Positions 39,118 through 64,000 of a stretch of 64,000 nucleotides of DNA are shown piece by piece. Under the pieces are notes generated by a model. That model did not search any database, was not told the origin of the DNA, and saw only the letters and a program-made list of their open reading frames with translations. Each line of letters begins with the position of its first letter. Positions within the stretch are counted from its first letter, which is position 1. Made by a program: the position numbers and the translations under genes. Source of the stretch: Escherichia coli (lineage in GTDB: Bacteria > Pseudomonadota > Gammaproteobacteria > Enterobacterales > Enterobacteriaceae); the NCBI RefSeq assembly GCF_024502345.1, contig NZ_JALDNN010000001.1; one strand, written 5' to 3'.

Positions 39118-39204
39118 GCCCGGATGGTGGAATCGGTAGACACAAGGGATTTAAAATCCCTCGGCGTTCGCGCTGTGTGGGTTCAAGTCCCACTCCGGGT
39201 ACCA
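39118..39204 (+). tRNA. leuZ: tRNA-Leu (UAA anticodon), class II tRNA with long variable arm; integration site of the downstream island
   Basis: GCCCGGATGGTGGAATCGGTAGACACAAGGGATTTAAAATCCCTCGGCGTTCGCGCTGTGTGGGTTCAAGTCCCACTCCGGGTACCA. Confidence 0.9.
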
Positions 39205-39245
39205 TGGGAAACATCAGAATAATCAAAGCAATAAGCAGTGTCGTT

Positions 39246-39269
39246 AAACCACCTCCGGGTGGTTTTTTT
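39246..39269 (+). terminator. Rho-independent terminator of the glyW-cysT-leuZ operon
   Basis: AAACCACCTCCGGGTGGTTTTTTT hairpin plus T-run. Confidence 0.8.
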
Positions 39270-46429: not shown

Positions 46430-49093
46430 TCAGACTGGAAGACAGAATGTCGGATATTTACGGGCTATGATATCCATCAGTGACTTCATTCGCGGTGTTA
46501 CAGAACTAAATTTCATTTGGGGTATTTTTGCTCTTACCGCATTTTTTACATCAGTCACCGTTACTGAATAGCCTTCTGACGTCAGCCATTCAGCAACCTC
46601 TTTACAGGAATAACTTTTTTTATCTTTCAGCATCAGCCCCCATTGGCACTGAGTCAGCGCCCGGAGAAATAGTCTGACTAAAATATCATCACTACGTTTG
46701 CTTCCGACTTTTAGTTTCATATCAGAAAACACCGTCCGGCAATAGAGAAAATCACACCAGTCATCCCAGTCAGCCAGGGTCTTCAGTGTATGCGTTTGCC
46801 GCCAGTCGTCGAAAAGGGAGCGCTGCTGCAGAGCCTCTTCCATATTATCCCATGGGCGGGAAAACATCAGTAAATGCCCTTCATTCATGGCGGGCTGTAC
46901 GGGCTGGCGTTTGAAATCGAATTCCAGATTAAGACGGATATCCTGTTCCCGGGATACCAGATCGCTTTCCGACAGCCACATCTCACGCGTTGATATCAAC
47001 GTACTTCGGGATAAAGTCTGACCGGGTAAACGATTAAGGTAAAGATCTACCATATAGTCGTTATAGTCACTGCGTGGAATATCGGCAGGAGGTTTGACGC
47101 CAGCCCTGGCATGAACAACAGGTTTTCCCTGAATAGCTCTATAGGTTAACTGCCCCCGGGTTTTCATGGCGATAAGCTGGCTGACTTCATGCTTACATGT
47201 CAACATTGATGAACCCGGATCAACAATATCGCACAGCGACTGGAAGCGGGAAGACAGTGGACCGCTCATGTTTATCTTGTTAAGTGGGCAATTTGTCAAA
47301 AAGCCATCGGTTGTGACGCTGACAACCGATGAATCAGAAGGCAAAGCATTCATGAGTTCCCCGGCAACGGCGCGGATAAATCCCGTTACATGCGCAGCAA
47401 AGAATGGCTGAGTAACCGATGATGGTGGGAGGGATCTGTTTAATCCACGGGCAGTATCAAAGGCGGTTTTGGCGCGAAGGCCCTGAGCAAGTTTGCCATA
47501 AAGCGAGTTGCCAATTTCTTTCCAGAATTTCTCCTCCAGAGAACCTTTAATATGGCGATTACGGTTCTCACGGACCTGTTGAACAAAGGGAAGAAACACC
47601 GATGTTGATTCGCTGTTATGTGGGGAGGTGTCACAGATCCAGGGGACGATGATCCCATTATGGATCGTCATCTCTGCCCCGAGCGACAGAGCAAGTTCGA
47701 TTTCAGGTGCCGTTGCCCATGATTCGCCACTTAATGGAAAGAATAACCCATATTGATCGGTCCGAACCGGCAGGCTGGGATAGGGAACTGATTCCGGGAA
47801 CCGAAATGTGACAAGCGCAAATCCCATTACATGCCCACAGTAATCGTCCGGATTTTTACTGAGGCGGATGTTCCCGTAATCGGGTGTGAGGATATCTAAT
47901 AGCCCGGTGGTATACGCTCCAGCCAGATCGTAGTCATACCAGTGATCAGACGGTGTAACCCCCATCATAAAACACTCATTGCGTCCGCCGTGGTAACAGT
48001 TGATCGGGAACGTTTCAAACAACTCTCTTGAAGGAACACTGGCGGGGTTTTTAATCGTCCGGAATGCCTGTTTCTCCGTGAGCCAGAGTTCACGGGTTTT
48101 AATGTGTGTCCCAAGGCAGACTTCAGGAGACATATTGTTTTCTTTAAGTGTTTTGGTGAACCGTGAAACTGCCATCGCCCCGATGGTGGCGGGGACACGA
48201 TCAATCATCAGCTCCCGGGCGCAAAAATTGCGAACCTGTAAAGCATAACGAACCGCAATCTCGGCATCCCGCAGAGCATAGGCTTCAAACCCTGCTCTGT
48301 CGCCCAGAAGATATTCACGCATATTGGTTATGGAATAAGGTGCAGGAATGGTGAGTTTGGGAAGACCCAGTAATTCACCACATTCAGCCAGACCCATACC
48401 CCCGGGAGTGATAAGCAGTGTATCGATGAAAGCTACGTTACTGCAACGCGGAGGGGAAGTTCGTTTGTCAAACATTATCTGTTCAGTCTTTACGCGACGT
48501 TCCTGCTGTTCATCAAAATCGATACCGTAACGATTTTTGAAGCTGCTGACAGTACCGCGTATTCCTTTCAGAAGAATTTTGTAGTCTGACCAGAAATTGG
48601 CAAAGGAGGCGATATCCGCACGAATGAAATGCGCATATATATTAATAATACCGGGCCATTTTGTAATCACACCCGTTTCAAGAAGCGGTGTAATCGTTTG
48701 ACAGAGAAATTCCTTAAAAGACAGCCGGGATTTTTTCTGTGAGTCAGGTGGATAGATAATGTTCGATATACCTGTATTATCGGGTAAGATAACATAACTC
48801 TGATATGACAGAATATCATTCTGTCGTGTTTCAGGGTTGAAAACATATTCGGTATCAAAACCGATATGGAGTGTCAGGTCACTTGAAATAACAGATACTT
48901 TTTTTGATGCAGGTGGTATCACAGGATAATCATCAAGCGTTTTAGGTCTTTTACGATTGAGCGCTGGCTCTGAAGTCACGGACTGATACCCCGAGGCGGC
49001 AGCGAGGATGTCCTGCAAATTATTGCTCATAGTTAACTCCGAAAAAATGCCGGGAGCTGTGTCCCGGCATAAAGAATCAGGATTTAATAACAT
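46430..49093 (-). CDS. Family B DNA polymerase of the primer-independent (piPolB) type, pipolin hallmark gene
   Basis: 887-aa ORF; Exo I FDTE; motif B KEIGNSLYGK; motif C-like VTTDGF; KTRG in place of the canonical KxY motif (IAMKTRGQLTY). Confidence 0.8.
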   Translation of the reverse strand: MLLNPDSLCRDTAPGIFSELTMSNNLQDILAAASGYQSVTSEPALNRKRPKTLDDYPVIPPASKKVSVISSDLTLHIGFDTEYVFNPETRQNDILSYQSYVILPDNTGISNIIYPPDSQKKSRLSFKEFLCQTITPLLETGVITKWPGIINIYAHFIRADIASFANFWSDYKILLKGIRGTVSSFKNRYGIDFDEQQERRVKTEQIMFDKRTSPPRCSNVAFIDTLLITPGGMGLAECGELLGLPKLTIPAPYSITNMREYLLGDRAGFEAYALRDAEIAVRYALQVRNFCARELMIDRVPATIGAMAVSRFTKTLKENNMSPEVCLGTHIKTRELWLTEKQAFRTIKNPASVPSRELFETFPINCYHGGRNECFMMGVTPSDHWYDYDLAGAYTTGLLDILTPDYGNIRLSKNPDDYCGHVMGFALVTFRFPESVPYPSLPVRTDQYGLFFPLSGESWATAPEIELALSLGAEMTIHNGIIVPWICDTSPHNSESTSVFLPFVQQVRENRNRHIKGSLEEKFWKEIGNSLYGKLAQGLRAKTAFDTARGLNRSLPPSSVTQPFFAAHVTGFIRAVAGELMNALPSDSSVVSVTTDGFLTNCPLNKINMSGPLSSRFQSLCDIVDPGSSMLTCKHEVSQLIAMKTRGQLTYRAIQGKPVVHARAGVKPPADIPRSDYNDYMVDLYLNRLPGQTLSRSTLISTREMWLSESDLVSREQDIRLNLEFDFKRQPVQPAMNEGHLLMFSRPWDNMEEALQQRSLFDDWRQTHTLKTLADWDDWCDFLYCRTVFSDMKLKVGSKRSDDILVRLFLRALTQCQWGLMLKDKKSYSCKEVAEWLTSEGYSVTVTDVKNAVRAKIPQMKFSSVTPRMKSLMDIIARKYPTFCLPV

Positions 49094-51329: not shown

Positions 51330-52460
51330 CTACAGTTTCATGATCTTGTTCGCTATTTTTTCGAAGTAAACCTCATTCTTAAGAAGAGTGATATTGTTTG
51401 TTTGAACACCCAGACCACTGGAGGTTGACTGGAAGTTGAGTGAACCACTTATCACTGTGGACTTTCCTGATAAAAATGAAATCAACTCCTTGGAAGATGG
51501 TGCCCACTCAGGGTTTAAGAGTAATGCAATATAGATATATGTCTTACGAAGCAATTGTTCTATATCTTTTTTATGCCCTGTAGTGTTTTGCTTACCTTTA
51601 ATGCAAATAGATTTGATTATGAACTCATCAGGGCTGGTTAAAGGCGTTTTAAACTCACTCAGTGATCCATCGTTATGAATGACTTCATAAGGCAGCATAG
51701 ATAAAATGATCAATGCAATCATTTTAGGATGATAAAGGTAGTTATCACGAATGATTTTTCCTGCCTTCATTGTATTGAGCGTTGTTTGAATAAATACAAA
51801 AAGATATTCAGAGCAAAAGTAACAAAACACAAGCCAGGATAGGTCAATGGATGGAATGTTAATATCCTTAGGTAGTTTGTTTAGCCAGTATTCAGACTTC
51901 AAAAAGGTCCTGATTTCAACAGTATATTCATGCATTTTTGCGCTGAAATCAAGCATTGCTACTTGACCTGATTGTTCCGTAACTGTGTGGTCTATAAATG
52001 TTAGTGTATTGCACATTTTATCCAGCGTGTTTTGAAAACAAGAAAGGAGTTCGGCATTATTATTACCATTAACCGCAGATGAAAGTTCAGTTTTAATAAA
52101 TGCATCCAGTAGCATACAGATTTCTTTCGGAATGACATTTTTACGGGATTGCTGTGAATAGAAATGTACTGCCAGTAAATTAAAGGCAGTGCACTCCTTT
52201 TTTAACCATTGTTCGAGCACTGGGACGTGCTGAAAAAAATTGATATGCTTAGCAGTAGATGCTGATGGAGATAGTACATGAAGAATATCTACAGCAGGCT
52301 TCATTTGCAATATTTGATCGGATTCGGTAGTCGTCATTAGTTCCAGTAATTGCTGTTCAGAAAATAGTTTAGACAGGTGATCAATGTCTTTTTGGTATTG
52401 ATTAAGTTTTGTTAAATTCCCCGGTATACGGGTTACATTGTTTTTCATTTTCTCGAACAT
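51330..52460 (-). CDS. Hypothetical protein (AT-rich gene, no recognisable motifs)
   Basis: 376-aa ORF, Lys/Asn/Ile-rich; long uninterrupted frame in a strongly AT-rich stretch. Confidence 0.5.
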   Translation of the reverse strand: MFEKMKNNVTRIPGNLTKLNQYQKDIDHLSKLFSEQQLLELMTTTESDQILQMKPAVDILHVLSPSASTAKHINFFQHVPVLEQWLKKECTAFNLLAVHFYSQQSRKNVIPKEICMLLDAFIKTELSSAVNGNNNAELLSCFQNTLDKMCNTLTFIDHTVTEQSGQVAMLDFSAKMHEYTVEIRTFLKSEYWLNKLPKDINIPSIDLSWLVFCYFCSEYLFVFIQTTLNTMKAGKIIRDNYLYHPKMIALIILSMLPYEVIHNDGSLSEFKTPLTSPDEFIIKSICIKGKQNTTGHKKDIEQLLRKTYIYIALLLNPEWAPSSKELISFLSGKSTVISGSLNFQSTSSGLGVQTNNITLLKNEVYFEKIANKIMKL

Positions 52461-52966: not shown

Positions 52967-54202
52967 TTAAAAGGAAATAAATAATGCCTTCCGCCGATGA
53001 ATCAGTGTACTGATTTCTCGAAAATCAGCCTCAATACTACCAACATCACCAAAGACTTCACCACTAATCTCTCTTCGATTTTTCATGAAATTGGTGCTTA
53101 ATAAGCTTTCTTTTTTTAGTGTCACTAATTTTGGTTTTATATCGTTATAGAAATGCTTACGGCTTACCCTGATGCTATGAATCGAGTAGTAAACTGTTTT
53201 ATACATCAAAAATATAAGTAACTGGCCGAGAAGATATTCTTTTTCAATGTATTTATATTGAGAGGATTTTTCGCGTTTCGCCAGGTAGAAAACATGAGGT
53301 GCGATGATGGTGGGGATGAAATCCAGTGCTGGAGAGGTTTTGGTTTTTTCTGTTTCTCTTCCGGATTGAAGATGTTGAAGTACAGAGTATACAATGCTTA
53401 AAATTATGGCGTTACTTATATTATTAATTGCAGTTGGGTAAATATGCAGATTGCTTATCAATTCTGAAAGGCAAAGTAAAACACCAGTGATGTTGGGTTT
53501 TCTGCCGGAGATTGTGGTGCTGTTGAAAATGTGACGATTCTTACGACTTATATTGACAAGTTTATGAGTGCAGAACTCTATATGTTCGACGATTTTATCT
53601 TGACTATTTTTAATGTATTTTGAAATGTTAGTGATCCGGCCATTCAACGTTAGTTCATCAAGCAATATATCATTTTTAATATTGCGAATTTCATCGCAAT
53701 GTTCACATTGAGAAACTATCTCATGTAATACATAACTCGACGTATTGCGGGGTGACGCTGATATGTAATCTAAAATAGAAGGCTCGATTTTGATTTTTTG
53801 TTTGTATTTTTTAATGCACTGTTTGATTGTTTTTTGTAGAGTATTTGAGATGTGTTTTTTATATTCTTTTAGAAAATCTTGCTCTAAAAAGAGTGAGGAG
53901 AAGATCAACTGCTGGCGAGATAATTTAATCTCAGGCTTGATCAATTTAATCCGAAAAACTCTTCCCTCCAACTCATAGCTGAACATGGAAGATAAGTCAT
54001 AGTGGGGTGATAAATGTTCGAGTAACGACATTCGTGTATTCATTAGCCGCTTGAATTTATGGTCAGCATACATAAGTGTTTTTTTTATTTGCTCATCATA
54101 AAGTGGGCCGATAGCGCAGTTGGCAATACTCATTCTATCCGGAGACCTCCAGTCAGCAGGGGAATCACATTGACGGTCATCATTACTATCAAAGGGCATC
54201 AA
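52967..54202 (-). CDS. Hypothetical protein (AT-rich gene, no recognisable motifs)
   Basis: 411-aa ORF, similar composition to the preceding gene; divergent from hsdM. Confidence 0.5.
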   Translation of the reverse strand: MMPFDSNDDRQCDSPADWRSPDRMSIANCAIGPLYDEQIKKTLMYADHKFKRLMNTRMSLLEHLSPHYDLSSMFSYELEGRVFRIKLIKPEIKLSRQQLIFSSLFLEQDFLKEYKKHISNTLQKTIKQCIKKYKQKIKIEPSILDYISASPRNTSSYVLHEIVSQCEHCDEIRNIKNDILLDELTLNGRITNISKYIKNSQDKIVEHIEFCTHKLVNISRKNRHIFNSTTISGRKPNITGVLLCLSELISNLHIYPTAINNISNAIILSIVYSVLQHLQSGRETEKTKTSPALDFIPTIIAPHVFYLAKREKSSQYKYIEKEYLLGQLLIFLMYKTVYYSIHSIRVSRKHFYNDIKPKLVTLKKESLLSTNFMKNRREISGEVFGDVGSIEADFREISTLIHRRKALFISF

Positions 54203-54505: not shown

Positions 54506-56029
54506 ATGAACGACAAAATCAGTCAGGACACGATCAACAAAGCCCTGTGGGCCGCGTGTGATACGTTCCGTGGCACCATCAGTGCTGATACCTATAAAGA
54601 CTTTATCCTTACCATGCTATTCCTTAAGTACATTTCGGATGTCTGGCAGGATCACTACGACGAATATAAAGTGCAATATGGTGATGAGCCGGAACTGATT
54701 GAAGCGATGATGGCGAACGAGCGCTTCGTGTTGCCGAAAAGCGCCAGTTTCTATGCGTTGTACGAGCGACGTCATGAGCCGGGCAACGGTGAGCGTATCG
54801 ATCAGGCGCTGCATGCGATTGAAGAAGCCAACGGCACCAAACTGAAAGATGCCGGGAAAAGTGTCTTCCAGGATATTTCGTTTAACACTGACCGTCTGGG
54901 CGAAGAAAAACAGAAGAACACCATCCTGCGTCAGTTGCTGGAAGACTTTGCCGGTGAAGATCTTAACCTGAAGCCAAGCCGTGTCGGTACGCTGGACGTT
55001 ATCGGTAATGCTTACGAATATCTGATCAAAAACTTTGCTGCCAGCGGTGGGCAGAAAGCCGGGGAATTCTATACCCCACCGGAAGTTTCGGATCTCATCG
55101 CTGAACTGCTTGATCCTCAACCCGGTGATACAATCTGCGACCCGGCCTGTGGTTCCGGTTCGTTGCTAATGAAGTGCGGGCGTAAAATTGTCTCAGGACA
55201 TGATAGCCGCAACTATGCGTTGTTCGGTCAGGAAGCGATTGGCTCCACGTGGTCGCTGGCGAAAATGAACATGTTCCTGCACGGCGAAGATAACCACAAA
55301 ATCGAGTGGGGCGATACCATTCGTAACCCGAAGTTGTTGGATAAAAACGGCGACCTGATGCTGTTTGATATCGTGACCGCAAACCCACCGTTCAGCCTGG
55401 ATAAGTGGGGCCATGACGAGGCCGAGAATGATAAGTTTGGGCGTTTCCGTCGCGGTGTACCGCCGAAGACTAAAGGGGATTACGCCTTTATCTCGCATAT
55501 GATCGAAACCCTGAAACCGGGAACGGGTCGTATGGGCGTAGTGGTGCCGCACGGTGTGCTGTTCCGTGGCTCCAGCGAAGGCAAAATTCGTCAGAAGCTG
55601 ATTGATGAAAACCTACTCGATGCGGTGATTGGCCTGCCTGAAAAACTGTTCTACGGTACGGGTATTCCTGCTGCAATTCTGATTTTTAAAAAGCAGAAAG
55701 TGGATGACAAGGTGCTGTTTATCGACGCCAGCCGTGAATTTAAGGCAGGTAAAAACCAGAACCAGCTCAGCGCAGAAAACATCGAGAAAATCGTCAAGAC
55801 CTACCGTGATGGCGATAGCGTCGAGAAATATGCCTACCTTGCCAGCCTGAAGGAGATTCAGGACAACGATTACAACCTCAATATTCCGCGCTATGTCGAT
55901 ACCTTTGAAGAAGAAGAAGATATCGATTTACTTGCCGTTCGTGCTGAGCGGGAGGAATTGAAAGCGGAACTGGCGAAATTGGAAACGCAGATGGCGGGTT
56001 ATCTGGAGGAGCTGGGTTATGGTGCCTAA
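54506..56029 (+). CDS. hsdM: Type I restriction-modification system methyltransferase subunit HsdM
   Basis: 507-aa ORF; SAM-binding motif DPACGSGSLL and catalytic NPPF (TANPPFSLDKW). Confidence 0.9.
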   Translation: MNDKISQDTINKALWAACDTFRGTISADTYKDFILTMLFLKYISDVWQDHYDEYKVQYGDEPELIEAMMANERFVLPKSASFYALYERRHEPGNGERIDQALHAIEEANGTKLKDAGKSVFQDISFNTDRLGEEKQKNTILRQLLEDFAGEDLNLKPSRVGTLDVIGNAYEYLIKNFAASGGQKAGEFYTPPEVSDLIAELLDPQPGDTICDPACGSGSLLMKCGRKIVSGHDSRNYALFGQEAIGSTWSLAKMNMFLHGEDNHKIEWGDTIRNPKLLDKNGDLMLFDIVTANPPFSLDKWGHDEAENDKFGRFRRGVPPKTKGDYAFISHMIETLKPGTGRMGVVVPHGVLFRGSSEGKIRQKLIDENLLDAVIGLPEKLFYGTGIPAAILIFKKQKVDDKVLFIDASREFKAGKNQNQLSAENIEKIVKTYRDGDSVEKYAYLASLKEIQDNDYNLNIPRYVDTFEEEEDIDLLAVRAEREELKAELAKLETQMAGYLEELGYGA

Positions 56030-57266
56030 GGGGTGGAAACGAGTACCGATTAAGGATGTGTGCGAGTCTATAATCGATTGCGTAAATAAAACAGCTCCAG
56101 TTGTTGATTATGAAACTCCCTTTAAGATGATTCGTACCACGAATGTACGTAATGGAAGGGTTAATACTGAAGACGTCAGATATGTGACTGAAGACACTTA
56201 CCTGCAATGGGTTCGACGCGGAAAACCGCAAGTAGGTGATATCATCTTTACACGTGAAGCACCTGTAGGAGAAGCAGGTGTCCTGCAAGATGCTGAAGGT
56301 ATTTTCCTCGGGCAAAGAACGATGATGTATCGAGCTGATACCTGCCTTTCAGATAACTATTTCTTGTTCTACTCGTTATCAAGTCCCTTCTGCCAGAAAC
56401 AAATTGAAGATTTTAGCAATGGCGGTACTGTAGCTCATATGAGAGTTCCAGATTGCGGTGAGATATTGATCAATCTACCGCCTTTCCTCGAACAAAAGAA
56501 AATCGCCCAAATCCTGTCAACCTGGGATAAGGCGATTTCGGTGACGGAAAAGCTTCTCACCAACAGCCAGCAGCAGAAAAAAGCCCTGATGCAGCAATTG
56601 CTTACTGGGAAGAAACGCTTGCTGGATGAGAATGGGACAAGGTTTTCTGAAACTTGGAAATTATATGCCTTATCGAAATTATTTCAGAGAGTTACGACTA
56701 AAAACAATGGAAAAAGCAACAATGTTGTAACCATTTCTGGACAACATGGTTTGATTAAACAGGAAGACTTTTTCAAGAAAACAGTCGCATCAGATACCCT
56801 TGATGGTTATTTCTTATTAAAAAAAGGGCAGTTTGCTTACAATAAAAGTTACTCTAATGGTTATCCGATGGGTGCAATAAAAAGATTAAATCGATATCCA
56901 GAGGGAGTAGTAACAACTCTGTATATATGTTTTGAACTTACTACACCCAAAAAATCATGTGGTGACTATTGGGAGCATTATTTTGAGTCAGGGCTTTTGA
57001 ATAACAGTTTGTCTCAAATTGCTCATGAAGGTGGACGGGCTCATGGCTTGCTAAATGTAAAACCTTCGGACTTCTTTTCATTAAAAGTTGCGGTTCCTGG
57101 CTTTGAAGAGCAACAAAAAATCGCATTAGTTCTGTCCGCTGCCGACACCGAAATCTCCACACTGGAGAAAAAACTCGCCTGCCTGAAAGACGAGAAGAAA
57201 GCCTTGATGCAGCAACTGCTGACCGGGAAACGTCGGGTGAAAGTGGATGAGGCGGTTGCCGTATGA
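56019..57266 (+). CDS. hsdS: Type I restriction-modification system specificity subunit HsdS
   Basis: 415-aa ORF with two target-recognition domains separated by conserved repeats (KKALMQQLLTGKKRLL and KKALMQQLLTGKRRVK); overlaps the hsdM end. Confidence 0.85.
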   Translation: MVPKGWKRVPIKDVCESIIDCVNKTAPVVDYETPFKMIRTTNVRNGRVNTEDVRYVTEDTYLQWVRRGKPQVGDIIFTREAPVGEAGVLQDAEGIFLGQRTMMYRADTCLSDNYFLFYSLSSPFCQKQIEDFSNGGTVAHMRVPDCGEILINLPPFLEQKKIAQILSTWDKAISVTEKLLTNSQQQKKALMQQLLTGKKRLLDENGTRFSETWKLYALSKLFQRVTTKNNGKSNNVVTISGQHGLIKQEDFFKKTVASDTLDGYFLLKKGQFAYNKSYSNGYPMGAIKRLNRYPEGVVTTLYICFELTTPKKSCGDYWEHYFESGLLNNSLSQIAHEGGRAHGLLNVKPSDFFSLKVAVPGFEEQQKIALVLSAADTEISTLEKKLACLKDEKKALMQQLLTGKRRVKVDEAVAV

Positions 57267-57946
57267 AACTGACGAAAAGCGGTCCACTGACTGACCGGGA
57301 AATCGACTGGCTGGAAGAAATATTAATGAAGTATGGAATGGATGATTCTGTACTCTGTTTCTCTGAGCTGGATGGATTGCTGACGGCGATTTTATCAGGT
57401 CCAAATATGGTTTCACCCAATATCTGGCTGAGTGCTATTTGGGGAGGAGGCGATTATCATCCGAAATGGTCATCTGAGAGAGAGATGGAGCGTTTTGTCA
57501 GTCTGTGTTTTCAGCATATGAACGATATCGCTGGTTGCCTTTATGACGCCCCTGAACTGTTTGAGCCGATTTTCAATGAGCGTGAGGTAAAGGGGGAAAA
57601 ATATACCATTGTGGAAGAGTGGTGTTTTGGTTATATGAAAGGAAAGTCACTGGATGACTGGTCTGGTCTTCCCGGTGAGTTACGGCCTTCTCTGGAAGTG
57701 ATCGCTCTTCATGGCGTGGAGAAGAATTTTCCTGTACTTGAGAAAATGACCGGAGAGCAGTTTGAGAAAAGTATTTCCCTTATTCAGCCTGCTGCACTGG
57801 CACTTTATCAGTACTGGTTGTCAGTGAGAATGTCAGAGGCATCATCCCGGCCTGTTCCAGTGAAGGGGGCAGAAAACATGCCCGGGCGAAATGACCCGTG
57901 TCCGTGTGGCAGCGGTAAAAAATTTAAGAAGTGCTGTCTGCATTGA
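57263..57946 (+). CDS. YecA-like (UPF0149) protein with C-terminal SEC-C zinc motif, embedded in the Type I R-M operon
   Basis: 227-aa ORF; C-terminal GRNDPCPCGSGKKFKKCCLH; start overlaps the hsdS stop (ATGA). Confidence 0.8.
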   Translation: MKLTKSGPLTDREIDWLEEILMKYGMDDSVLCFSELDGLLTAILSGPNMVSPNIWLSAIWGGGDYHPKWSSEREMERFVSLCFQHMNDIAGCLYDAPELFEPIFNEREVKGEKYTIVEEWCFGYMKGKSLDDWSGLPGELRPSLEVIALHGVEKNFPVLEKMTGEQFEKSISLIQPAALALYQYWLSVRMSEASSRPVPVKGAENMPGRNDPCPCGSGKKFKKCCLH

Positions 57947-57995
57947 TGAATCTTCATGTGACCAGTAGCGAGTAGCGCCAGAAAGAAAAGGATTA

Positions 57996-60900
57996 ATGAT
58001 GAACCAGACGTACACGCCAAAATTCCAGGAAGAATACAGCGCCAAAATTCCGGCACTGACGTTACTGACCAGCCTCGGCTGGACGTTTTTATCTCCGAAA
58101 CAGATTATGGATTACCGGGGCTATAAACAGGATGAGGTGGTGCTGCGTCCGGTTCTGCGTGAAGAGCTGTCGAAGCGTTCCTTTATGGCGGGTGGCAAAA
58201 CCTGCCAGTTATCGGAAAAAGCACTGGATAACCTGATATCACAGGTCTGTTCTCCGGCGCTGAATGAAGGGCTGCTCAAAGCCAATGAACGGATGTATAA
58301 CCATCTGCTCTACGGTATCGCCGTCACGGAGTTTGTCGATGGCAAGAAGGTCAACCCCACCATTGCGCTGATCGACTGGGAACATCCGGAAAATAACCAG
58401 TTCCACTTTACTGAAGAATTTACGGTATTGCGGTCAGGTGGTGTTGAAACCCGGAGGCCAGATATTGTCTGCTTTGTTAATGGTATCCCGCTGGCTGTTA
58501 TTGAAGCGAAAAGCCCGGCTGGTCATGGCAAGAAAGGGCCAACCATTGACGAGGGGATATCCCAGAGTATCCGCAACCAGTTCAACGATGAAATCCCGCA
58601 GCTGTTTGTCTACAGCCAGTTATTACTTTCGATTAACGGTCATGACGGGCGCTACGGTACATGCCATACGCCAATGAAATTCTGGGCGGCATGGCGCGAA
58701 GAAGATATTACCGATGCGCAGATGTATGCTCTGCGCAACCATCCTTTATCGACTGAACAAATTCATGCGTTGTTTGATCATCGTCCATCAGCCGATCTCA
58801 ACTGGTACCAACAGTTAATCGCCGCCGGTGAACTGGCTGTCAGTGGACAGGACAAACTGCTCATCAGCCTGCTTTCGCCGGAACGTCTGCTGGAGATGAC
58901 CCGCTTCTTCACTCTGTTTGATAAAAAGACCGGGAAAATTGTCGCCCGCTATCAGCAGGTGTTCGGTATTAAAAGACTGCTGGAGCGCATCAGTACCCGC
59001 AGACCCGATGGGGGCAGGGAAGGTGGTGTTATCTGGCATACCACCGGCTCTGGCAAATCGTACACCATGGTGTTCCTCAGCAAGGCGCTGATTCTTCATG
59101 ACAGCCTGAAGCGGTGTCGTATCGTGGTGGTGACGGACCGTATCGATCTTGAAGAACAGCTCAGCAGTACCTTTGCATCCGGCGGCGAGTTGGCCGGGAA
59201 AAAAGACAAAGCCAATGCAATGGCGACATCCGGGCAGATGCTGGCGAAACAGATTGGCTCCGGTAAAGAACGCATCATTTTCACCCTAATCCAGAAATTT
59301 AATTCAGCGACAAAACTTCCTGAATGCGTCAATACCAGCCCCGATATCATCGTTCTGGTTGATGAAGGACACCGTAGCCAGGGTGGTGAGAACCATGTGC
59401 GAATGAAACTGGCACTGCCGAACGCCGCCTTTGTGGCATTTACTGGTACGCCATTGCTAAAAGAAGATAAGACCACCAATAAATTCGGACCGATTGTCCA
59501 CGCTTATACCATGCAGCGAGCGGTAGAAGATAAAGCCGTTACACCTTTGCTGTATGAAGAACGTATTCCCGACCTTGAGGTTAACGATCGGGCAATAGAT
59601 GCCTGGTTTGATCGTATTACCGATGGGTTAAGCGAAGCGCAAAAAGCCGACCTGAAGCGTAAATATGCCCGTAAAGGTGAGGTTTATAGTGCAGATGATC
59701 GCATCCGTCTGATCGCACTCGATATCGCCACGCACTTCTCGAAGAATATTGATGAGGGACTGAAAGGCCAGCTTGCCTGCGACAGCAAGATTTCCGCCAT
59801 CAAATATAAAAAGTATCTTGATGAAGCCGGGTTGTTTGAGTCAGCTGTAGTTATCAGCCCGCCGGATACCCGGGAAGGGAATACCGAAGTGGATGAAAGC
59901 AAACTGCCGGAAGTGACGAAATGGTGGAAGGATAATGTCGGCACGCAGGATGAGTCTGTGTATACCCGTAATGTCATCAGTCGTTTCGATACCGATGAGA
60001 AGCTCAAATTGCTGATAGTCGTTGATAAACTGCTCACCGGGTTTGATGAGCCGAAGAATACCGTGCTGTATATCGACAAGCCGCTTAAGTCCCACAACCT
60101 TATCCAGGCGATTGCGCGGGTGAACCGACTGCATCCACTAAAAAAGTTCGGTCTGCTGATTGATTATCGCGGTATTCTGGCTGAGCTGGACACGACTATC
60201 GGCAAATATCAGGACCTCGCCTCCCGAACTCAGGGCGGATACGATATCAAAGATATTGACGGGCTGTACAGCGCCATGAGCTCTGAATACAAGCGCCTGC
60301 CGCATCTGTATAACCAGCTGTGGGCCATATTTGCCGGTGTTAAAAACAAAAATGATACTGAGCAGTTACGTGCGGTACTGGTGCCTAAAATGGAAGAACG
60401 TGACGGAGAGATGGTCGATATCCATCAGAAAACCCGTGATGATTTCTTCGAGGCGTTAACGGCCTTTGCCGGATGCCTGAAAGTGGCACTGCAGTCCGCT
60501 ACCTTCTTCACCGACAAGAGCTTTACGGAACAAGACCGAAATCTCTATAAAGAAACCGTAAAACAGATGTCCAGCCTGCGCCAGTGGGCGATGCAGGTAA
60601 GTGGAGAGCAGGTCAATTATGACGACTACGCTGAGCAGGTGAAAAAACTGCTGGATAAGCATGTCACCGGCGTTGAAGTTCGTGAACCGGATGGCGTGTA
60701 TGAAGTCGGTAAAATGGGCAAGAGCGAAAAGCCCGAAGAGTGGGACAACAATAAAACCCGCAATGAAACCGACATCATTAAAACCCGTGTGACAAAGATG
60801 ATTGAGCAGGAATTGCGTGATGACCCGTATGCTCAGGAGGCATTTTCAAAACTCCTGCGTATGGCTATCGAAGAGGCTGAAAAACTGTTTGACCATCCGC

Positions 60901-61283
60901 TGAAACAGTACCTTTTGTTCCGTGAATTTGAAGAACAGGTTGAAGCCCGTAAGCTCAGCGATATCCCGGATGCACTGGCGGTAAACAAGCATGCTCAGGC
61001 GTATTACGGTGTATTTAAAAAAGAGCTACCTGAGGTTTTTGCGGTAAACGACGTTCAGGTGCAGGATAAGTGGACGAAGCTGGCTTTTGAAGTGGACAAC
61101 ATTATCGTCAAAGCGGTGGCAGAAAACTCCCTGAACCCCCAGGACATTGAGAAAGTCGTTAAGACAAGTCTGCTACCACTGCTGTTTACGGCCTGCCGGG
61201 AAATTGGTGCCGGAATGAATCAGGTTAACCGTATTGTTGAAACCATCATCCAGATACTGCGCGTTGGTTTGATGAAATCATGA
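57996..61283 (+). CDS. hsdR: Type I restriction-modification system endonuclease/helicase subunit HsdR
   Basis: 1095-aa ORF; Walker A TGSGKS, DEAH-type motif VLVDEGHRSQ, helicase C region. Confidence 0.9.
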   Translation: MMNQTYTPKFQEEYSAKIPALTLLTSLGWTFLSPKQIMDYRGYKQDEVVLRPVLREELSKRSFMAGGKTCQLSEKALDNLISQVCSPALNEGLLKANERMYNHLLYGIAVTEFVDGKKVNPTIALIDWEHPENNQFHFTEEFTVLRSGGVETRRPDIVCFVNGIPLAVIEAKSPAGHGKKGPTIDEGISQSIRNQFNDEIPQLFVYSQLLLSINGHDGRYGTCHTPMKFWAAWREEDITDAQMYALRNHPLSTEQIHALFDHRPSADLNWYQQLIAAGELAVSGQDKLLISLLSPERLLEMTRFFTLFDKKTGKIVARYQQVFGIKRLLERISTRRPDGGREGGVIWHTTGSGKSYTMVFLSKALILHDSLKRCRIVVVTDRIDLEEQLSSTFASGGELAGKKDKANAMATSGQMLAKQIGSGKERIIFTLIQKFNSATKLPECVNTSPDIIVLVDEGHRSQGGENHVRMKLALPNAAFVAFTGTPLLKEDKTTNKFGPIVHAYTMQRAVEDKAVTPLLYEERIPDLEVNDRAIDAWFDRITDGLSEAQKADLKRKYARKGEVYSADDRIRLIALDIATHFSKNIDEGLKGQLACDSKISAIKYKKYLDEAGLFESAVVISPPDTREGNTEVDESKLPEVTKWWKDNVGTQDESVYTRNVISRFDTDEKLKLLIVVDKLLTGFDEPKNTVLYIDKPLKSHNLIQAIARVNRLHPLKKFGLLIDYRGILAELDTTIGKYQDLASRTQGGYDIKDIDGLYSAMSSEYKRLPHLYNQLWAIFAGVKNKNDTEQLRAVLVPKMEERDGEMVDIHQKTRDDFFEALTAFAGCLKVALQSATFFTDKSFTEQDRNLYKETVKQMSSLRQWAMQVSGEQVNYDDYAEQVKKLLDKHVTGVEVREPDGVYEVGKMGKSEKPEEWDNNKTRNETDIIKTRVTKMIEQELRDDPYAQEAFSKLLRMAIEEAEKLFDHPLKQYLLFREFEEQVEARKLSDIPDALAVNKHAQAYYGVFKKELPEVFAVNDVQVQDKWTKLAFEVDNIIVKAVAENSLNPQDIEKVVKTSLLPLLFTACREIGAGMNQVNRIVETIIQILRVGLMKS

Positions 61284-62035
61284 GTGAAAAAGAATCGCCA
61301 TCAATGAAAGCGTTACGCATTGTCTATGGTGATGAGGTCATCGTCGTACAGTGTGTTCCGCGTCAGGTCGTAAAGGGCAGGGTGCTCATTAAGGTTTATC
61401 CGGACTGCCGGGTTGTGGCCTCTGTACCGCCTGAAACACCGGAGCACGAGGTATTGTCTGCGCTGAAAAAACGTGGGCGCTGGATATACCAGCAACTGCG
61501 TGATTTCAGGGAGCAACAGATACACATTGTTCCGCGTCAGTATGTCAGCGGAGAAAGCCATTATTATCTCGGTAAGCAATATCAGTTGAAAGTGACAGAA
61601 GACGCTACTGTGCCGCAACGAGTGAAAATGTTGCGTGGACGTCTGGAAGTGACTGTCAGACACAAATCGGCAGAAAAGATTAAAGCCTTGCTGGCTGAAT
61701 GGTATCGGGAACGTGCCAGAGATGTTTTTCAGCGCAGGCTTGATTTACTGATTCCGCAGACCCTTTGGGTCAGTGAGCGTCCTCCGATACGTCTGCGGGC
61801 GATGCAAACGCAATGGGGCAACTGTTCAGCAAAAGGCTGTCTGACCCTGAATCCATGGCTGGTTAAGGCATCTTCAGAATGTATCGATTATGTTTTGCTA
61901 CATGAGTTATGCCATGTGGCTGAGCACAACCACAGCGAGGAGTTTTACCGTCTGATGGGACAGGTTATGCCGGGCTGGGAAAAGGTTAAGAAGCGACTGG
62001 ATGGTATGGCTGGGATGTTGTTGGCAGATATGTAA
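61280..62035 (+). CDS. YgjP-like (DUF45 / M48 family) zinc metallopeptidase, coupled to hsdR
   Basis: 251-aa ORF with HExxH motif (LLHELCHVAEHNH); start overlaps the hsdR stop (ATGA). Confidence 0.75.
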   Translation: MSEKESPSMKALRIVYGDEVIVVQCVPRQVVKGRVLIKVYPDCRVVASVPPETPEHEVLSALKKRGRWIYQQLRDFREQQIHIVPRQYVSGESHYYLGKQYQLKVTEDATVPQRVKMLRGRLEVTVRHKSAEKIKALLAEWYRERARDVFQRRLDLLIPQTLWVSERPPIRLRAMQTQWGNCSAKGCLTLNPWLVKASSECIDYVLLHELCHVAEHNHSEEFYRLMGQVMPGWEKVKKRLDGMAGMLLADM

Positions 62036-62060: not shown

Positions 62061-63932
62061 TTGGTCAGTCTCGTTAATGCAGGGAGTATAATAATGAGTA
62101 AGTTAGATAATAAAATTGAAGCACGCCATCGTAATTTGTTTGATGTTCTAAATGCGCAAAAATATACCGTTGATTACTTTCAGCGCGAGTATAGCTGGGG
62201 TGAGAAACATATTGAAGAGTTGGTTACAGACTTAACATCTGCGTTTCTCAATGAATACACAGTCGGTGATTCTCGGGAGCAGGGTGAAAACTACAATAAT
62301 TATTACTTAGGACCATTTGTTGTGAGTAGTAAAGATGGAAAGCGGAGTATTATTGATGGTCAGCAACGACTGACTTCATTAACTTTATTTCTAATTTACC
62401 TCCATAATCTTCAGAAAGAACTTAAATATGAAGAGAAAATAGAATCAATGATTTTCTCCGAGCTACGTGGCAGCAAATCATTCAATATAGTAGTTGAAGA
62501 CAGAATTCCTTGCATGGAAGCATTGTTTAATTTTGGTAGCTATAGTTTAGTTGATGGGGATGATGAGTCAACCCATAACATGGTGGAGAGATATCAGAAT
62601 ATCACAGATGCTTTTCCTGATGAGTTAAAAGGTCAGGCTTTTCCTTTTTTTATCGACTGGCTTAAGTATAACGTTATTATGGTTGAGATAGTCGCCTATT
62701 CAGATGAAAACGCATATACCATCTTTGAGACTATGAATGACCGAGGATTGAATCTTACTCCGTCCGAAATGCTTAAAGGTTTTTTACTTTCACGTTTTCA
62801 TCAGGGAGATAAACGCCAAAAGGCAAATGAACTCTGGAAAAAAGCGATGATGGATTTAAAAAGCTATGACAAAGATGAAGACCAACGTTTTTTCCAGTCA
62901 TGGTTGCGTGCTCAATATGCTGATACAATACGCCCGGGTAAAGCTGGTTCAAAAAATGAAGACTTTGAAAAAATAGGTACGCGTTTTCATAGCTGGGTTA
63001 GAGATAATCTTCAGGCGGTGGGATTGGACCCAGATAATGGTGAGACATTCGAACGATTTATACAAAAAAACTTTTTGTTTTATTTGAATGCCTATACACA
63101 AATACTGAATGCTGAGAGAGTATTAACGCACCAACTGGAATATGTATTTTATATCCACCATTGGGGTATTGCACCTACTTTAAGTTTTCCTTTGATGTTG
63201 GCTCCATTAAATGTAGGTGACAGTCCTGAGGCTGTGATAGCCAAAATAAACCTAGTGGCTCGCTATATTGAAACGTTTGTTGTTCGTCGTTCTGTTAATT
63301 TCCGAAAATTCTCTGCCAGTTCTATTCGTTACACAATGTACAGTCTTGTTAAAGAGATTCGTGGTAAAAGTTTTGAAGAATTAAAAGATTTATTATCTAA
63401 GAAGTTATCCGAAATGCCAGATACTTTTGCAGGAATGGAAGAGTTTCGTCTCCATGGTCAAAACTATCGTTTTGTGAAGTTTTTGCTTTCTCGTATAACT
63501 GCGTGGGTTGAGCAACAAGCCGGAATGAGTACAACCTTCATTACATATTATCAGCCAGAACACGGTAAGCCATTTGAAGTCGAGCATATTTGGGCCGATA
63601 AATATGAACGTTACTCTGATGAGTTTGAACAAGAGCACGAATTTAACAATTACAGAAATCGCTTAGGTGATTTGGTTTTATTACCTAGAGGCTCAAACCA
63701 GTCATATGGTGATTTGTGTTACGATCAAAAGCAACCTCATTACATCAAAGAGAATCTCCTGGCTAAATCGTTATGCCCATTGGCATATATGAATAACCCT
63801 AATTTCAATCAGTTGAGAAATGTATTCGGATTGCCTTTCAAACCACATGATTCATTTAAAAAACAAGATGTCGATGAACGACAGTCTTTGTATAAAATAA
63901 TTTGTGAGAATATTTGGGGCCATAATTTATAG
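62061..63932 (+). CDS. GmrSD-family Type IV restriction endonuclease (N-terminal DUF262 ParB-like domain, C-terminal DUF1524 HNH-like nuclease)
   Basis: 623-aa ORF; DUF262 signature IIDGQQRLTSL; C-terminal segment EVEHIWADKYERYSDEFEQEHEFNNYRNRLGDLVLLP. Confidence 0.75.
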   Translation: MVSLVNAGSIIMSKLDNKIEARHRNLFDVLNAQKYTVDYFQREYSWGEKHIEELVTDLTSAFLNEYTVGDSREQGENYNNYYLGPFVVSSKDGKRSIIDGQQRLTSLTLFLIYLHNLQKELKYEEKIESMIFSELRGSKSFNIVVEDRIPCMEALFNFGSYSLVDGDDESTHNMVERYQNITDAFPDELKGQAFPFFIDWLKYNVIMVEIVAYSDENAYTIFETMNDRGLNLTPSEMLKGFLLSRFHQGDKRQKANELWKKAMMDLKSYDKDEDQRFFQSWLRAQYADTIRPGKAGSKNEDFEKIGTRFHSWVRDNLQAVGLDPDNGETFERFIQKNFLFYLNAYTQILNAERVLTHQLEYVFYIHHWGIAPTLSFPLMLAPLNVGDSPEAVIAKINLVARYIETFVVRRSVNFRKFSASSIRYTMYSLVKEIRGKSFEELKDLLSKKLSEMPDTFAGMEEFRLHGQNYRFVKFLLSRITAWVEQQAGMSTTFITYYQPEHGKPFEVEHIWADKYERYSDEFEQEHEFNNYRNRLGDLVLLPRGSNQSYGDLCYDQKQPHYIKENLLAKSLCPLAYMNNPNFNQLRNVFGLPFKPHDSFKKQDVDERQSLYKIICENIWGHNL

Positions 63933-64000
63933 CAAAGTTGGGGTGTTAATTAATGTGTAATGGCATCATGATTTTTAAAAGGAGGTTGAATTGCGTTCTG

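What the first reader, a model, noticed from the sequence alone, without database searches (positions are those of the whole stretch)
62061..63932. GmrSD-family Type IV restriction enzyme (DUF262 + DUF1524)
The 623-aa ORF has the DGQQR signature of the DUF262 ParB-like NTPase domain and a C-terminal DUF1524 HNH-like nuclease. Single-polypeptide enzymes of this family restrict modified DNA. Its position directly after the Type I system gives a layered defence.
Basis: partly seen in the sequence, partly recalled or inferred. Interest (0 to 1): 0.5.

Follow-up and report, generated by a model that had tools for sequence, protein, structure and literature searches.

The report
GmrSD-family defence nuclease on a pipolin
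This gene encodes a one-protein anti-phage nuclease of the well-known GmrSD (DUF262 + DUF1524) family, already catalogued in E. coli, so the call is correct but ordinary; which DNA it attacks has not been shown.

Summary
The ORF is real. It most likely starts at ATG 62094, giving 612 aa rather than 623. Pfam finds GmrSD_N/DUF262 (4.4e-33) and GmrSD_C/DUF1524 (1.4e-7). The QR, DGQQR, FxxxN and E-H…N motifs are 95-100% conserved across 79 homologues that share only 32-50% identity with this protein. An AlphaFold model (pLDDT 94) matches only DndI, SspE and BrxU in the PDB.

The family profile aligns over its whole length with the UTI89 GmrSD protein (hhalign 99.3%), at about 20% identity. The clade is about equally distant from DndI, GmrSD and SspE, and far from BrxU. 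Its best PADLOC match is HEC-06, a modification-dependent anti-T-even nuclease.

The E. coli protein is already listed as GmrSD cluster CLS_012 in Silas et al. 2025. That paper says it tested representatives of all 15 GmrSD systems against T-even phages, but the held text does not say which were active, nor that CLS_012 is one of the 15.

Close homologues sit inside or just after Type I R-M operons. One sits inside a CRISPR-Cas operon, and several stand alone. The gene therefore looks like an autonomous cassette. Here it is cargo of a pipolin integrated at tRNA-Leu.

Verdict: interpretation supported, already known, substrate unproven, low interest.

The parts
62094..63932 (+). GmrSD-family gene (612 aa plus stop), cluster CLS_012 of Silas et al. 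2025
   Evidence: ORF. Pfam GmrSD_N + GmrSD_C. 99.7-99.9% nt identity to genes annotated 'DUF262 domain-containing protein' in E. coli. WP_042202019 and WP_000039876 are listed under CLS_012.
62061..62093 (+). In-frame 5' extension of the mechanical ORF (TTG start), probably untranslated; contains the ribosome-binding site AGGGAG at 62081-62086
   Evidence: Sequence. RefSeq starts the gene at the ATG. Homologues align from about residue 1-8 of the 612-aa form.
62142..62786 (+). N-terminal DUF262/GmrS ParB-Srx-like NTPase (sensor) domain, aa 17-231. Motifs: QREYSW 62181-62198, DGQQR 62355-62369, FETMNDRG 62724-62747
   Evidence: Pfam 4.4e-33. Q30, R31, W35, D88, G89, Q91, N215, R217 and G218 are invariant in 79 homologues.
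62805..63518 (+). All-helical linker domain, about aa 238-475
   Evidence: DSSP on the AlphaFold model shows only helices from 238 to 475. This region aligns collinearly with the linker of UTI89 GmrSD.
63546..63767 (+). C-terminal DUF1524/GmrD His-Me finger nuclease core, aa 485-558. EVEHIWA 63576-63596 (E497-H498 at 63582-63587); RNRLGDLVLLPRGSNQS 63654-63704 (N535 at 63696-63698)
   Evidence: Pfam 1.4e-7. Model shows strand 494-498, strand 527-531, helix 532-538. E497 77/79, H498 78/79, N535 78/79.
54506..62035 (+). Upstream Type I R-M operon: hsdM 54506-56029, hsdS 56019-57266, embedded YecA-like gene 57263-57946, hsdR 57996-61283, M48/YgjP-like gene 61280-62035
   Evidence: NCBIfam hsdM 4.5e-84, hsdR 6.9e-138, PRK10396 5.5e-107. 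RefSeq annotation. 4-11 nt gene overlaps.
63991..64000 (+). Start of the next gene, a 375-aa PD-(D/E)XK protein (PADLOC candidate PDC-S26), cut by the window end
   Evidence: L001 15898-17025. PADLOC 2e-50.
39118..39268 (+). tRNA-Leu(taa) and the left att repeat of the island that carries the gene
   Evidence: ARAGORN. An approximately 120-bp direct repeat matches L001 18495-18616, just before yecA.
46430..49093 (-). piPolB (primer-independent family B DNA polymerase), the hallmark gene of a pipolin
   Evidence: Published piPolB PCR primers match at 46718-46738 (exact) and 47281-47304 (2 mismatches), with 0 matches expected by chance. RefSeq calls it 'DNA polymerase'.

Best explanation
The gene encodes an autonomous single-chain defence nuclease of the GmrSD (DUF262-linker-DUF1524) family.

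Inferred mechanism, by analogy with characterised relatives: the N-terminal ParB/sulfiredoxin-like domain binds and hydrolyses NTP through the DGQQR pocket and reads the state of the DNA. It signals through the helical linker to the C-terminal His-Me finger nuclease (E497/H498 as catalytic base, N535 as metal ligand), which nicks or cuts foreign DNA.

The most likely target is phage DNA with hypermodified bases, such as hmC or glucosyl-hmC of T-even phages. That would make it a Type IV enzyme covering phages that escape the neighbouring Type I R-M system.

Shown here: the gene, its domains, its motifs, family membership, and its cassette-like genomic behaviour. Inferred: NTPase and nuclease activity, anti-phage function and substrate.

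My rough probabilities: GmrSD-family defence nuclease about 0.9; modification-dependent (Type IV) about 0.55-0.6.
For: - Domains: Pfam GmrSD_N 4.4e-33 and GmrSD_C 1.4e-7.
- Family size: 542 representatives (one per 50%-identity cluster) at E<=1e-30; nearly all of the 150 listed match collinearly, most over the full length.
- Motifs: QR, W35, DGQQR, FxxxN, E497, H498, N535, K546 and N554 are 95-100% conserved in 79 sequences that share 32-50% identity with this protein.
- Structure: AlphaFold model pLDDT 94.4, pTM 0.89, with a beta-beta-alpha nuclease core. The only PDB hits at E<=0.001 are DndI, SspE and BrxU.
- Homology to bona fide GmrSD: hhalign of the family profile against UTI89 GmrSD gives probability 99.3%, E 2e-20, 524 collinear columns with EH and LGxL…N aligned. 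HMMER gives 72 bits in one full-length domain.
- Closest defence family: PADLOC HEC-06, 1.4e-39. HEC-06 needs DGQQR and EH for defence and is reported to block T4. A HEC-06 homologue blocks T-even phages but not unmodified T4-GT7.
- Prior cataloguing: the protein is listed in GmrSD cluster CLS_012.
- Autonomy: homologues occur alone in Pantoea, Rhodococcus, an E. coli IncF plasmid and a Lactobacillus plasmid. One is inside a CRISPR-Cas operon.
- Separate origin: the gene is 36.7% GC against about 50% for hsdM, hsdR and the M48 gene.
Against: - No activity or substrate data for this clade could be retrieved. The text of Silas et al. says 8 of 15 GmrSD systems were active against T-even phages but not which.
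- By profile score the clade is as close to DndI (87 bits) and SspE (67 bits), which sense host phosphorothioate, as to GmrSD (72 bits), and it is far from BrxU (22 bits).
- The C-terminal Pfam match is partial.
- The canonical GmrD motifs deviate. The sequence is EHIWA instead of EHxxPQ. The Asn of L(G/A)N is Asp here and Gly or Ala in most of the clade.
- NCBIfam has no model that matches the protein.
Confidence: 0.7

Rival explanations
1. It is a self-mark-sensing nickase like SspE or DndI. It would attack DNA that lacks a host modification and be released or regulated by that modification, either phosphorothioate or the m6A written by the neighbouring Type I methyltransferase.
For: DndI is the best PDB match by both sequence profile (1.1e-23) and fold (1.7e-12, TM 0.48), and SspE is next. 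Close homologues are translationally coupled inside hsdM-hsdS-X-hsdR operons.
Against: - No dnd or ssp genes appear in the island annotation.
- Homologues occur alone or inside a CRISPR-Cas operon with no methyltransferase within 10 kb, and about 18 of 32 species-level loci have no Type I genes nearby.
- The residue used by DndI for sensing (Y25, just before QR) is Tyr or Phe throughout this clade and Tyr in UTI89 GmrSD, so it does not discriminate.
- The hsdS genes next to close homologues differ widely (22-91% identity). A sequence-specific mark is therefore unlikely.
Confidence: 0.08
2. It is a guard of the Type I R-M system, as PrrC is for EcoprrI. It would be kept silent by the R-M complex and unleashed when a phage anti-restriction protein disables that complex.
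For: In Marinobacter, Acinetobacter, Aeromonas and a metagenome it occupies the same slot as prrC (hsdS-X-hsdR), in several cases with 4-nt overlaps. 14 of about 32 informative species-level loci have Type I genes within 10 kb.
Against: - Solo and CRISPR-embedded copies exist at 32-76% identity.
- Here the hsdS-hsdR slot is taken by another gene and this one sits after hsdR and the M48 gene with different GC.
- The related HEC-06 and BrxU are reported to work alone.
Confidence: 0.07
3. It is an anti-phage or anti-plasmid nuclease whose trigger is not a base modification, for example a phage protein, a DNA structure or replication intermediates.
For: Only 8 of 15 enterobacterial GmrSD systems restricted T-even phages. 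The clade's nuclease motifs differ from canonical GmrD.
Against: Every characterised family member senses a DNA chemical mark: hmC, glucosyl-hmC or 5mC for GmrSD, BrxU, TgvAB and the HEC-06 homologue, and phosphorothioate for SspE and DndI.
Confidence: 0.1
4. It is a decayed or non-functional remnant, or has a non-defence role.
For: 20 of 178 E. coli matches cover less than 80% of the gene. Truncated forms exist in the protein database.
Against: The ORF is full-length with all catalytic residues intact. It is 75-97% identical to proteins from several other gammaproteobacterial genera, and 158 E. coli genomes hold a match covering at least 80% of the gene. It always lies among defence genes or on mobile elements.
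Confidence: 0.05

Closest known systems
GmrSD cluster CLS_012 (Silas et al. 2025, Nat Commun, PMC12373910)
   Same: This is the same protein family at 99.7-99.9% nt identity. WP_042202019 (E. coli CT02) and WP_000039876 (ETEC H10407 ETEC_RS10590, the same coordinates as hit H13) are listed in this cluster.
   Different: Nothing differs at sequence level. The window copy has a few substitutions, for example G instead of D near the C-terminus. The phenotype of the tested representatives is not in the text I could read.
HEC-06 (Payne et al. 2024 bioRxiv; PADLOC)
   Same: It is the best PADLOC match (1.4e-39), with the same three-part architecture and the DGQQR and E-H motifs. HEC-06 is a single-gene system found embedded in other defence operons. 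It needs both motifs for defence, and a homologue acts only on modified T-even DNA.
   Different: The best-scoring stretch of the leading HEC-06 model covers only the N-terminal 266 residues. HEC-06 models are about 560 positions against 612 aa here. The nuclease motif is EHICP in HEC-06 and EHIWA here. HEC-06 was found inside Hma systems; this gene is in or next to Type I R-M.
GmrSD of E. coli CT596/UTI89 type (CLS_006) and Eco94GmrSD
   Same: Collinear homology runs over N domain, linker and nuclease (hhalign 99.3%, 524 columns; 72 bits). It is also a single polypeptide in an E. coli defence island.
   Different: Identity is only about 20-22%, and BLASTP detects the N domain alone. UTI89 GmrSD is 697 aa with an extra C-terminal region. 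The canonical EHxxPQ and LGN motifs are altered here.
DndI (PDB 9JFL) and SspE (6JIV/7DRS)
   Same: These are the top solved-structure matches by profile and by fold. They share DGQQR and a His-Me domain.
   Different: They work with dnd or ssp phosphorothioation genes, which are not annotated in this island. They sense the host mark and nick unmodified DNA.
BrxU (PDB 7P9K/7P9M; HEC-05; CLS_010)
   Same: Same superfamily, and the same habit of being embedded in another defence operon (BREX).
   Different: It is very distant: 22 bits over the N-terminal region only, and Foldseek E 7e-4.

Membership tests
GmrSD family (DUF262 + DUF1524; Machnicka et al. 2015) | N-terminal DUF262/GmrS domain (Pfam PF03235) | tested here: met
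   E 4.4e-33, aa 17-231, covering model positions 3-198 of 199.
GmrSD family (DUF262 + DUF1524; Machnicka et al. 2015) | GmrS motifs QR, (I/V)DGQQR and FxxxN | tested here: met
   Q30-R31, I87-DGQQR92 and F211-ETM-N215 are present. They are invariant or at least 97% conserved in 79 homologues.
GmrSD family (DUF262 + DUF1524; Machnicka et al. 2015) | C-terminal DUF1524/GmrD domain (Pfam PF07510) | tested here: met
   E 1.4e-7, a partial match (model positions 50-115 of 138) over aa 485-558. Precomputed Pfam gives PF07510 for the homologues.
GmrSD family (DUF262 + DUF1524; Machnicka et al. 2015) | GmrD motifs (I/L/V)(E/D)H(I/L/V)xPQ, L(G/A)NLxLLxxxN and NxxFxxKK (the E/D-H-N-N nuclease signature) | tested here: inconclusive
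   V-E-H-I is present, but the sequence is WAD instead of xPQ. The second motif reads LGDLVLLPRGSN: the first Asn is Asp (Gly or Ala in 61 of 79 homologues) and there is one extra residue before N535. E497, H498 and N535 are at least 97% conserved and N554 95%, N522 77%. The catalytic core is kept but the canonical pattern is not.
GmrSD family (DUF262 + DUF1524; Machnicka et al. 2015) | Full-length collinear homology to an experimentally studied GmrSD | tested here: met
   Family profile against UTI89 GmrSD: hhalign 99.3%, E 2e-20, 524 columns; HMMER 72 bits in one domain spanning profile positions 6-539.
GmrSD family (DUF262 + DUF1524; Machnicka et al. 2015) | Three-part fold: ParB/Srx-like domain, helical linker, beta-beta-alpha-metal nuclease | tested here: met
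   Model pLDDT 94.4. The only PDB matches at E<=0.001 are DndI, SspE and BrxU.
Type IV (modification-dependent) restriction enzyme | Cleaves DNA only when it carries a modified base; restricts phages with modified DNA but not unmodified mutants | not testable with these tools
   Needs plaque assays or in vitro cleavage. Indirect support comes only from HEC-06 and its homologue and from GmrSD and BrxU.
Type IV (modification-dependent) restriction enzyme | No cognate methyltransferase is required | tested here: met
   Homologues occur alone or in a CRISPR-Cas operon with no methyltransferase detected nearby.
HEC-06 (PADLOC) | Match to the PADLOC HEC-06 profile HMMs over the protein | tested here: inconclusive
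   Best family, E 1.4e-39 to 1.7e-37, but the best stretches cover the N-terminal region (1-266, or 6-114). The models named 'Orf5' give a full-length match (aa 21-555, E 1.9e-30). PADLOC's own score cut-offs are not shown.
SspE / DndI phosphorothioate-sensing nickases | Genetic linkage to sspABCD or dndBCDE phosphorothioation genes | tested here: not met
   No dnd or ssp genes are annotated in the E. coli island or in 15 inspected homologue loci.
SspE / DndI phosphorothioate-sensing nickases | Sequence and fold similarity to the solved proteins | tested here: met
   DndI 1.1e-23 and SspE 1.2e-17 by profile. Foldseek 1.7e-12 and 4.1e-11. This shows shared ancestry, not the same function.
BrxU subfamily | Close similarity to BrxU, including its RLFDS nucleotide-binding motif | tested here: not met
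   Only 22 bits over the N-terminal ~90 residues. PADLOC HEC-05 5.4e-10, N-terminal only. No RLFDS in the sequence.

The most novel reading that the evidence does not exclude
The clade that rides with Type I R-M operons (CLS_012 and relatives) may not be a classical anti-hmC enzyme. It could read a different DNA mark: another phage hypermodification, or the presence or absence of the adenine methylation written by the adjacent Type I methyltransferase, in the manner of DndI and SspE. That would make it a second, sequence-independent restriction arm of the R-M system. Three observations leave room for this: the clade is equally distant from GmrSD and from DndI/SspE; its nuclease motif is altered; and it is repeatedly translationally coupled between hsdS and hsdR.
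Probability: 0.12. Interest if true: 0.6.

Novelty: already known. Interest (0 to 1): 0.2.

Why it matters
It adds little that is new. The protein is annotated in RefSeq, matches two Pfam GmrSD domains, and is already listed as one of the twenty commonest enterobacterial GmrSD clusters.

Its practical value is as a worked example of a layered, modular defence island. A Type I R-M operon, a GmrSD-type nuclease, a PD-(D/E)XK candidate and an Mrr-like nuclease are all carried by a pipolin at tRNA-Leu.

What remains open is the substrate of this clade, and why it so often inserts into Type I R-M operons.

Tried and rejected
- NCBIfam gave no match for the protein.
- Single-sequence search of the PDB found only DndI, and a designed repeat protein that I take to be a chance match. 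A family profile was needed to see SspE and BrxU.
- I first concluded that the clade is closer to DndI/SspE than to GmrSD. Scoring the same profile against UTI89 GmrSD gave 72 bits, between DndI (87) and SspE (67), so I withdrew that claim.
- I could not find what the PADLOC model name 'Orf5' refers to.
- I could not find whether CLS_012 was among the active GmrSD variants. The result is only in a supplementary figure image.
- The first attempt to locate UTI89 gmrSD missed the region.
- The promoter and terminator scan found no more sites than shuffled sequence and nothing in the 58-nt gap, so it says little about co-transcription.
- DndI's sensing residue Y25 cannot be used as a discriminator, because Tyr or Phe precedes QR throughout this clade and Tyr precedes it in UTI89 GmrSD.
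- No internal third att repeat was found in the window part of the island, despite two integrase genes.
Full report
**Observation.** The + strand ORF 62061..63932 exists. It opens with TTG, but an ATG at 62094 lies 7 nt after a good ribosome-binding site (AGGGAG, 62081-62086). That ATG is the start RefSeq uses for the 99.9%-identical gene of E. coli CT02 (WP_042202019.1, 'DUF262 domain-containing protein'). The product is therefore most likely 612 aa, not 623. The gene is 36.7% GC, so an ORF this long cannot be a chance event.

**Domains and motifs.**
- Pfam finds GmrSD_N/DUF262 (aa 17-231, E 4.4e-33) and GmrSD_C/DUF1524 (aa 485-558, E 1.4e-7, a partial match).
- The motifs that Machnicka et al. 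2015 use to define the GmrS domain (PMC4619093) are all present: QR (Q30-R31), IDGQQR (87-92) and FxxxN (F211…N215).
- The nuclease half has V-E-H-I (496-499) and LGDLVLLPRGSN (524-535).

**Family.** An exhaustive HMMER search of 1.84 billion cluster representatives returns 542 at E<=1e-30. Nearly all of the 150 listed match collinearly, most over the full length. I aligned 79 of them, which share 32-50% identity with the query.
- Q30, R31, W35, D88, G89, Q91, N215, R217 and G218 are invariant.
- E497 (77/79), H498 (78/79), R521, N535 (78/79), K546 and N554 (75/79) are nearly invariant.
- The clade departs from the canonical GmrD pattern. EHxxPQ becomes EHIWA. The Asn of L(G/A)N is Gly or Ala in most members and Asp here. 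One extra residue precedes N535.

**Structure.** The AlphaFold2 model is confident (pLDDT 94.4, pTM 0.89). It shows a mixed alpha/beta N domain, an all-helical linker (about 238-475) and a strand-strand-helix unit (494-498, 527-531, 532-538). H498 sits at the end of the first strand and N535 in the helix, as expected for a His-Me finger. Foldseek against the PDB gives significant hits only to DndI (9JFL, 1.7e-12), SspE (7DRS, 6JIV, 7DRI) and BrxU (7P9M, 7e-4).

**Position within the superfamily.** One profile, built from the 79-sequence alignment, scores as follows:

| Protein | Bits | Source |
|---|---|---|
| DndI (9JFL) | 87 | |
| Uncharacterised DUF262 chain 20yv | 84 | |
| GmrSD of E. coli UTI89 | 72 | |
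| SspE | 67 | |
| BrxU | 22 | |

I took the UTI89 GmrSD sequence from the immigration control region of that genome. Its 72 bits come from a single domain spanning profile positions 6-539. hhalign gives 99.3% probability, E 2e-20, 524 collinear columns, with the EH and LGxL…N motifs aligned. Pairwise identity to UTI89 GmrSD is only about 20-22%.

PADLOC ranks HEC-06 first (1.4e-39), then models named 'Orf5' (one full-length, 1.9e-30), then SspE (1e-16) and HEC-05/BrxU (5e-10). The protein is therefore a genuine member of the GmrSD-like superfamily but belongs to its own clade. That clade is about equidistant from GmrSD, DndI and SspE, and far from BrxU.

**What is already published.**
- Silas et al. 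2025 (PMC12373910) clustered enterobacterial DUF262 proteins. Their Supplementary Data 6 lists WP_042202019 and WP_000039876 under cluster CLS_012. The latter is ETEC H10407 ETEC_RS10590 at 2106343..2108181, which is exactly my hit H13.
- They report synthesising representatives of all 15 GmrSD systems and testing them against T2, T4 and T6. Five new ones plus three known ones were active. The held text does not say whether CLS_012 is one of those 15 systems, or whether it was active.
- HEC-06 is a GmrSD-like single-gene defence that loses function when DGQQR or EH is mutated. It is reported to block T4. A 22%-identical HEC-06 homologue protects against T-even phages but not against T4-GT7, which has unmodified cytosine.
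- DndI and SspE have the same architecture but sense host phosphorothioate and nick unmodified DNA.

**Genomic context.**
- The gene follows hsdM-hsdS-(YecA-like)-hsdR-(M48/YgjP-like) after a 58-nt gap.
- It is followed, just beyond the window, by a PD-(D/E)XK protein (PADLOC candidate PDC-S26) and an Mrr-type nuclease.
- Close homologues (75-96% identity) lie after hsdR and the YgjP-like gene in Citrobacter and Yersinia.
- In Marinobacter, Acinetobacter, Aeromonas and a metagenome they lie between hsdS and hsdR, in several cases with 4-nt overlaps.
- In Aggregatibacter the homologue lies between cas4 and cas1 of a type I-C CRISPR-Cas operon.
- More distant members (32-61% identity) stand alone in Pantoea, Rhodococcus, an E. 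coli IncF plasmid and a Lactobacillus plasmid. Others sit in a Ralstonia methylase-helicase operon or beside a DISARM-like cluster in Aeromonas.
- In a scan of one genome per species, 14 of about 32 informative family loci have Type I genes within 10 kb and about 18 have none.
- The gene's GC content (36.7%) differs sharply from that of the adjacent R-M genes (about 50%).

Together these points indicate an autonomous cassette that preferentially lodges in DNA-targeting defence operons. Machnicka et al. 2015 and Payne et al. 2024 described the same habit for GmrSD-like genes.

**The island.**
- The gene is cargo of a pipolin. The 887-aa polymerase ORF (46430..49093, minus strand) contains both published piPolB diagnostic primers.
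- The element is inserted at tRNA-Leu(taa) between pgsA and yecA, which is the published pipolin site.
- An approximately 120-bp att repeat at 39147-39268 recurs just before yecA in the CT02 genome.
- ETEC H10407, which carries the same gene, is a known pipolin host.
- The gene is present in 178 of 5426 complete E. coli genomes and is always chromosomal.

**Mechanism.** Shown here: sequence, domains, conserved catalytic residues, fold, family membership and modular context. Inferred from relatives: NTP binding and hydrolysis at DGQQR, coupling through the linker, and metal-dependent nicking or cleavage by the His-Me finger.

The substrate is the weakest link. I favour modified phage DNA (Type IV), at about 0.55-0.6, for three reasons. 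The nearest defence family (HEC-06) and the GmrSD, BrxU and TgvAB branches all act on modified cytosines. The gene works in contexts with no methyltransferase. It also persists in E. coli, most strains of which carry Dam and Dcm methylation, so it presumably tolerates those ordinary marks; that last point is inference from general knowledge and I did not test it.

The rivals are a DndI/SspE-style sensor of a self mark, a PrrC-style guard of the Type I system, a trigger that is not a modification, and a decayed gene. I rate each at 0.1 or below, for the reasons given under rival explanations.

**Verdict.** The finding is ordinary and already catalogued. I score it low, and the clade's substrate remains an open question.

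Noticed in passing
window 39118-64000 (continues about 2.7 kb beyond the window); piPolB at 46430-49093 (-): The whole defence island is a pipolin. It has a primer-independent PolB gene that carries both published diagnostic primers. It is inserted at tRNA-Leu(taa) between pgsA and yecA. An approximately 120-bp att repeat (39147-39268) recurs before yecA in E. coli CT02 (L001 18495-18616). Two tyrosine recombinase genes are present (40237-41484 +, 50056-51186 -).
   Followed up: yes
window 57263-57946 (+): A YecA-family paralogue (UPF0149 + SEC-C motif, 227 aa) is translationally coupled between hsdS and hsdR. It matches PADLOC defence candidate PDC-S12 (3.9e-99) and NCBIfam PRK10396 (5.5e-107). 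The housekeeping yecA lies just outside the island. Citrobacter and Yersinia versions of the same operon lack it. Its role in a Type I R-M operon is unexplained.
   Followed up: partly
L010 10001-11845 (Aggregatibacter actinomycetemcomitans): A 76%-identical homologue of the GmrSD-family gene is inserted between cas4 and cas1 of a type I-C CRISPR-Cas operon, on the same strand.
   Followed up: no
window 61280-62035 (+): An M48/YgjP-like (DUF45, HExxH) gene overlaps the hsdR stop by 4 nt. It accompanies this Type I family in E. coli, Citrobacter, Yersinia, Acinetobacter, Aeromonas, a metagenome contig carrying the Marinobacter protein (L009) and more distant phyla (L026, L035, L061). It has no PADLOC or NCBIfam match.
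   Followed up: partly
window 63991-64000 and L001 15898-18311: Downstream genes are a 375-aa PD-(D/E)XK protein (PADLOC candidate PDC-S26, 2e-50), then a 393-aa protein with a C-terminal Mrr-type nuclease domain. The Mrr-type gene directly follows the GmrSD-family gene in Citrobacter and Yersinia (90-92% identity). The PD-(D/E)XK gene is an extra insertion in E. coli.
   Followed up: partly
window 62094-63932 versus 54506-62035: The GmrSD-family gene is 36.7% GC, hsdS 41.9%, and hsdM, hsdR and the M48 gene about 50%. The operon is a compositional mosaic, which suggests the parts were acquired separately.
   Followed up: partly
L019 21385-23478 (E. coli UTI89): RefSeq annotates UTI89 gmrSD as two pieces (a partial DUF262 pseudogene plus a GmrSD-domain protein), yet the DNA holds one uninterrupted 739-codon ORF. 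Its NTPase motif reads EGQQR rather than DGQQR.
   Followed up: no
window 51330-52460 (-) and 52967-54202 (-): Two hypothetical genes (376 and 411 aa) lie between the second integrase and hsdM. Neither has a PADLOC match, and the one checked against NCBIfam (411 aa) has none.
   Followed up: no
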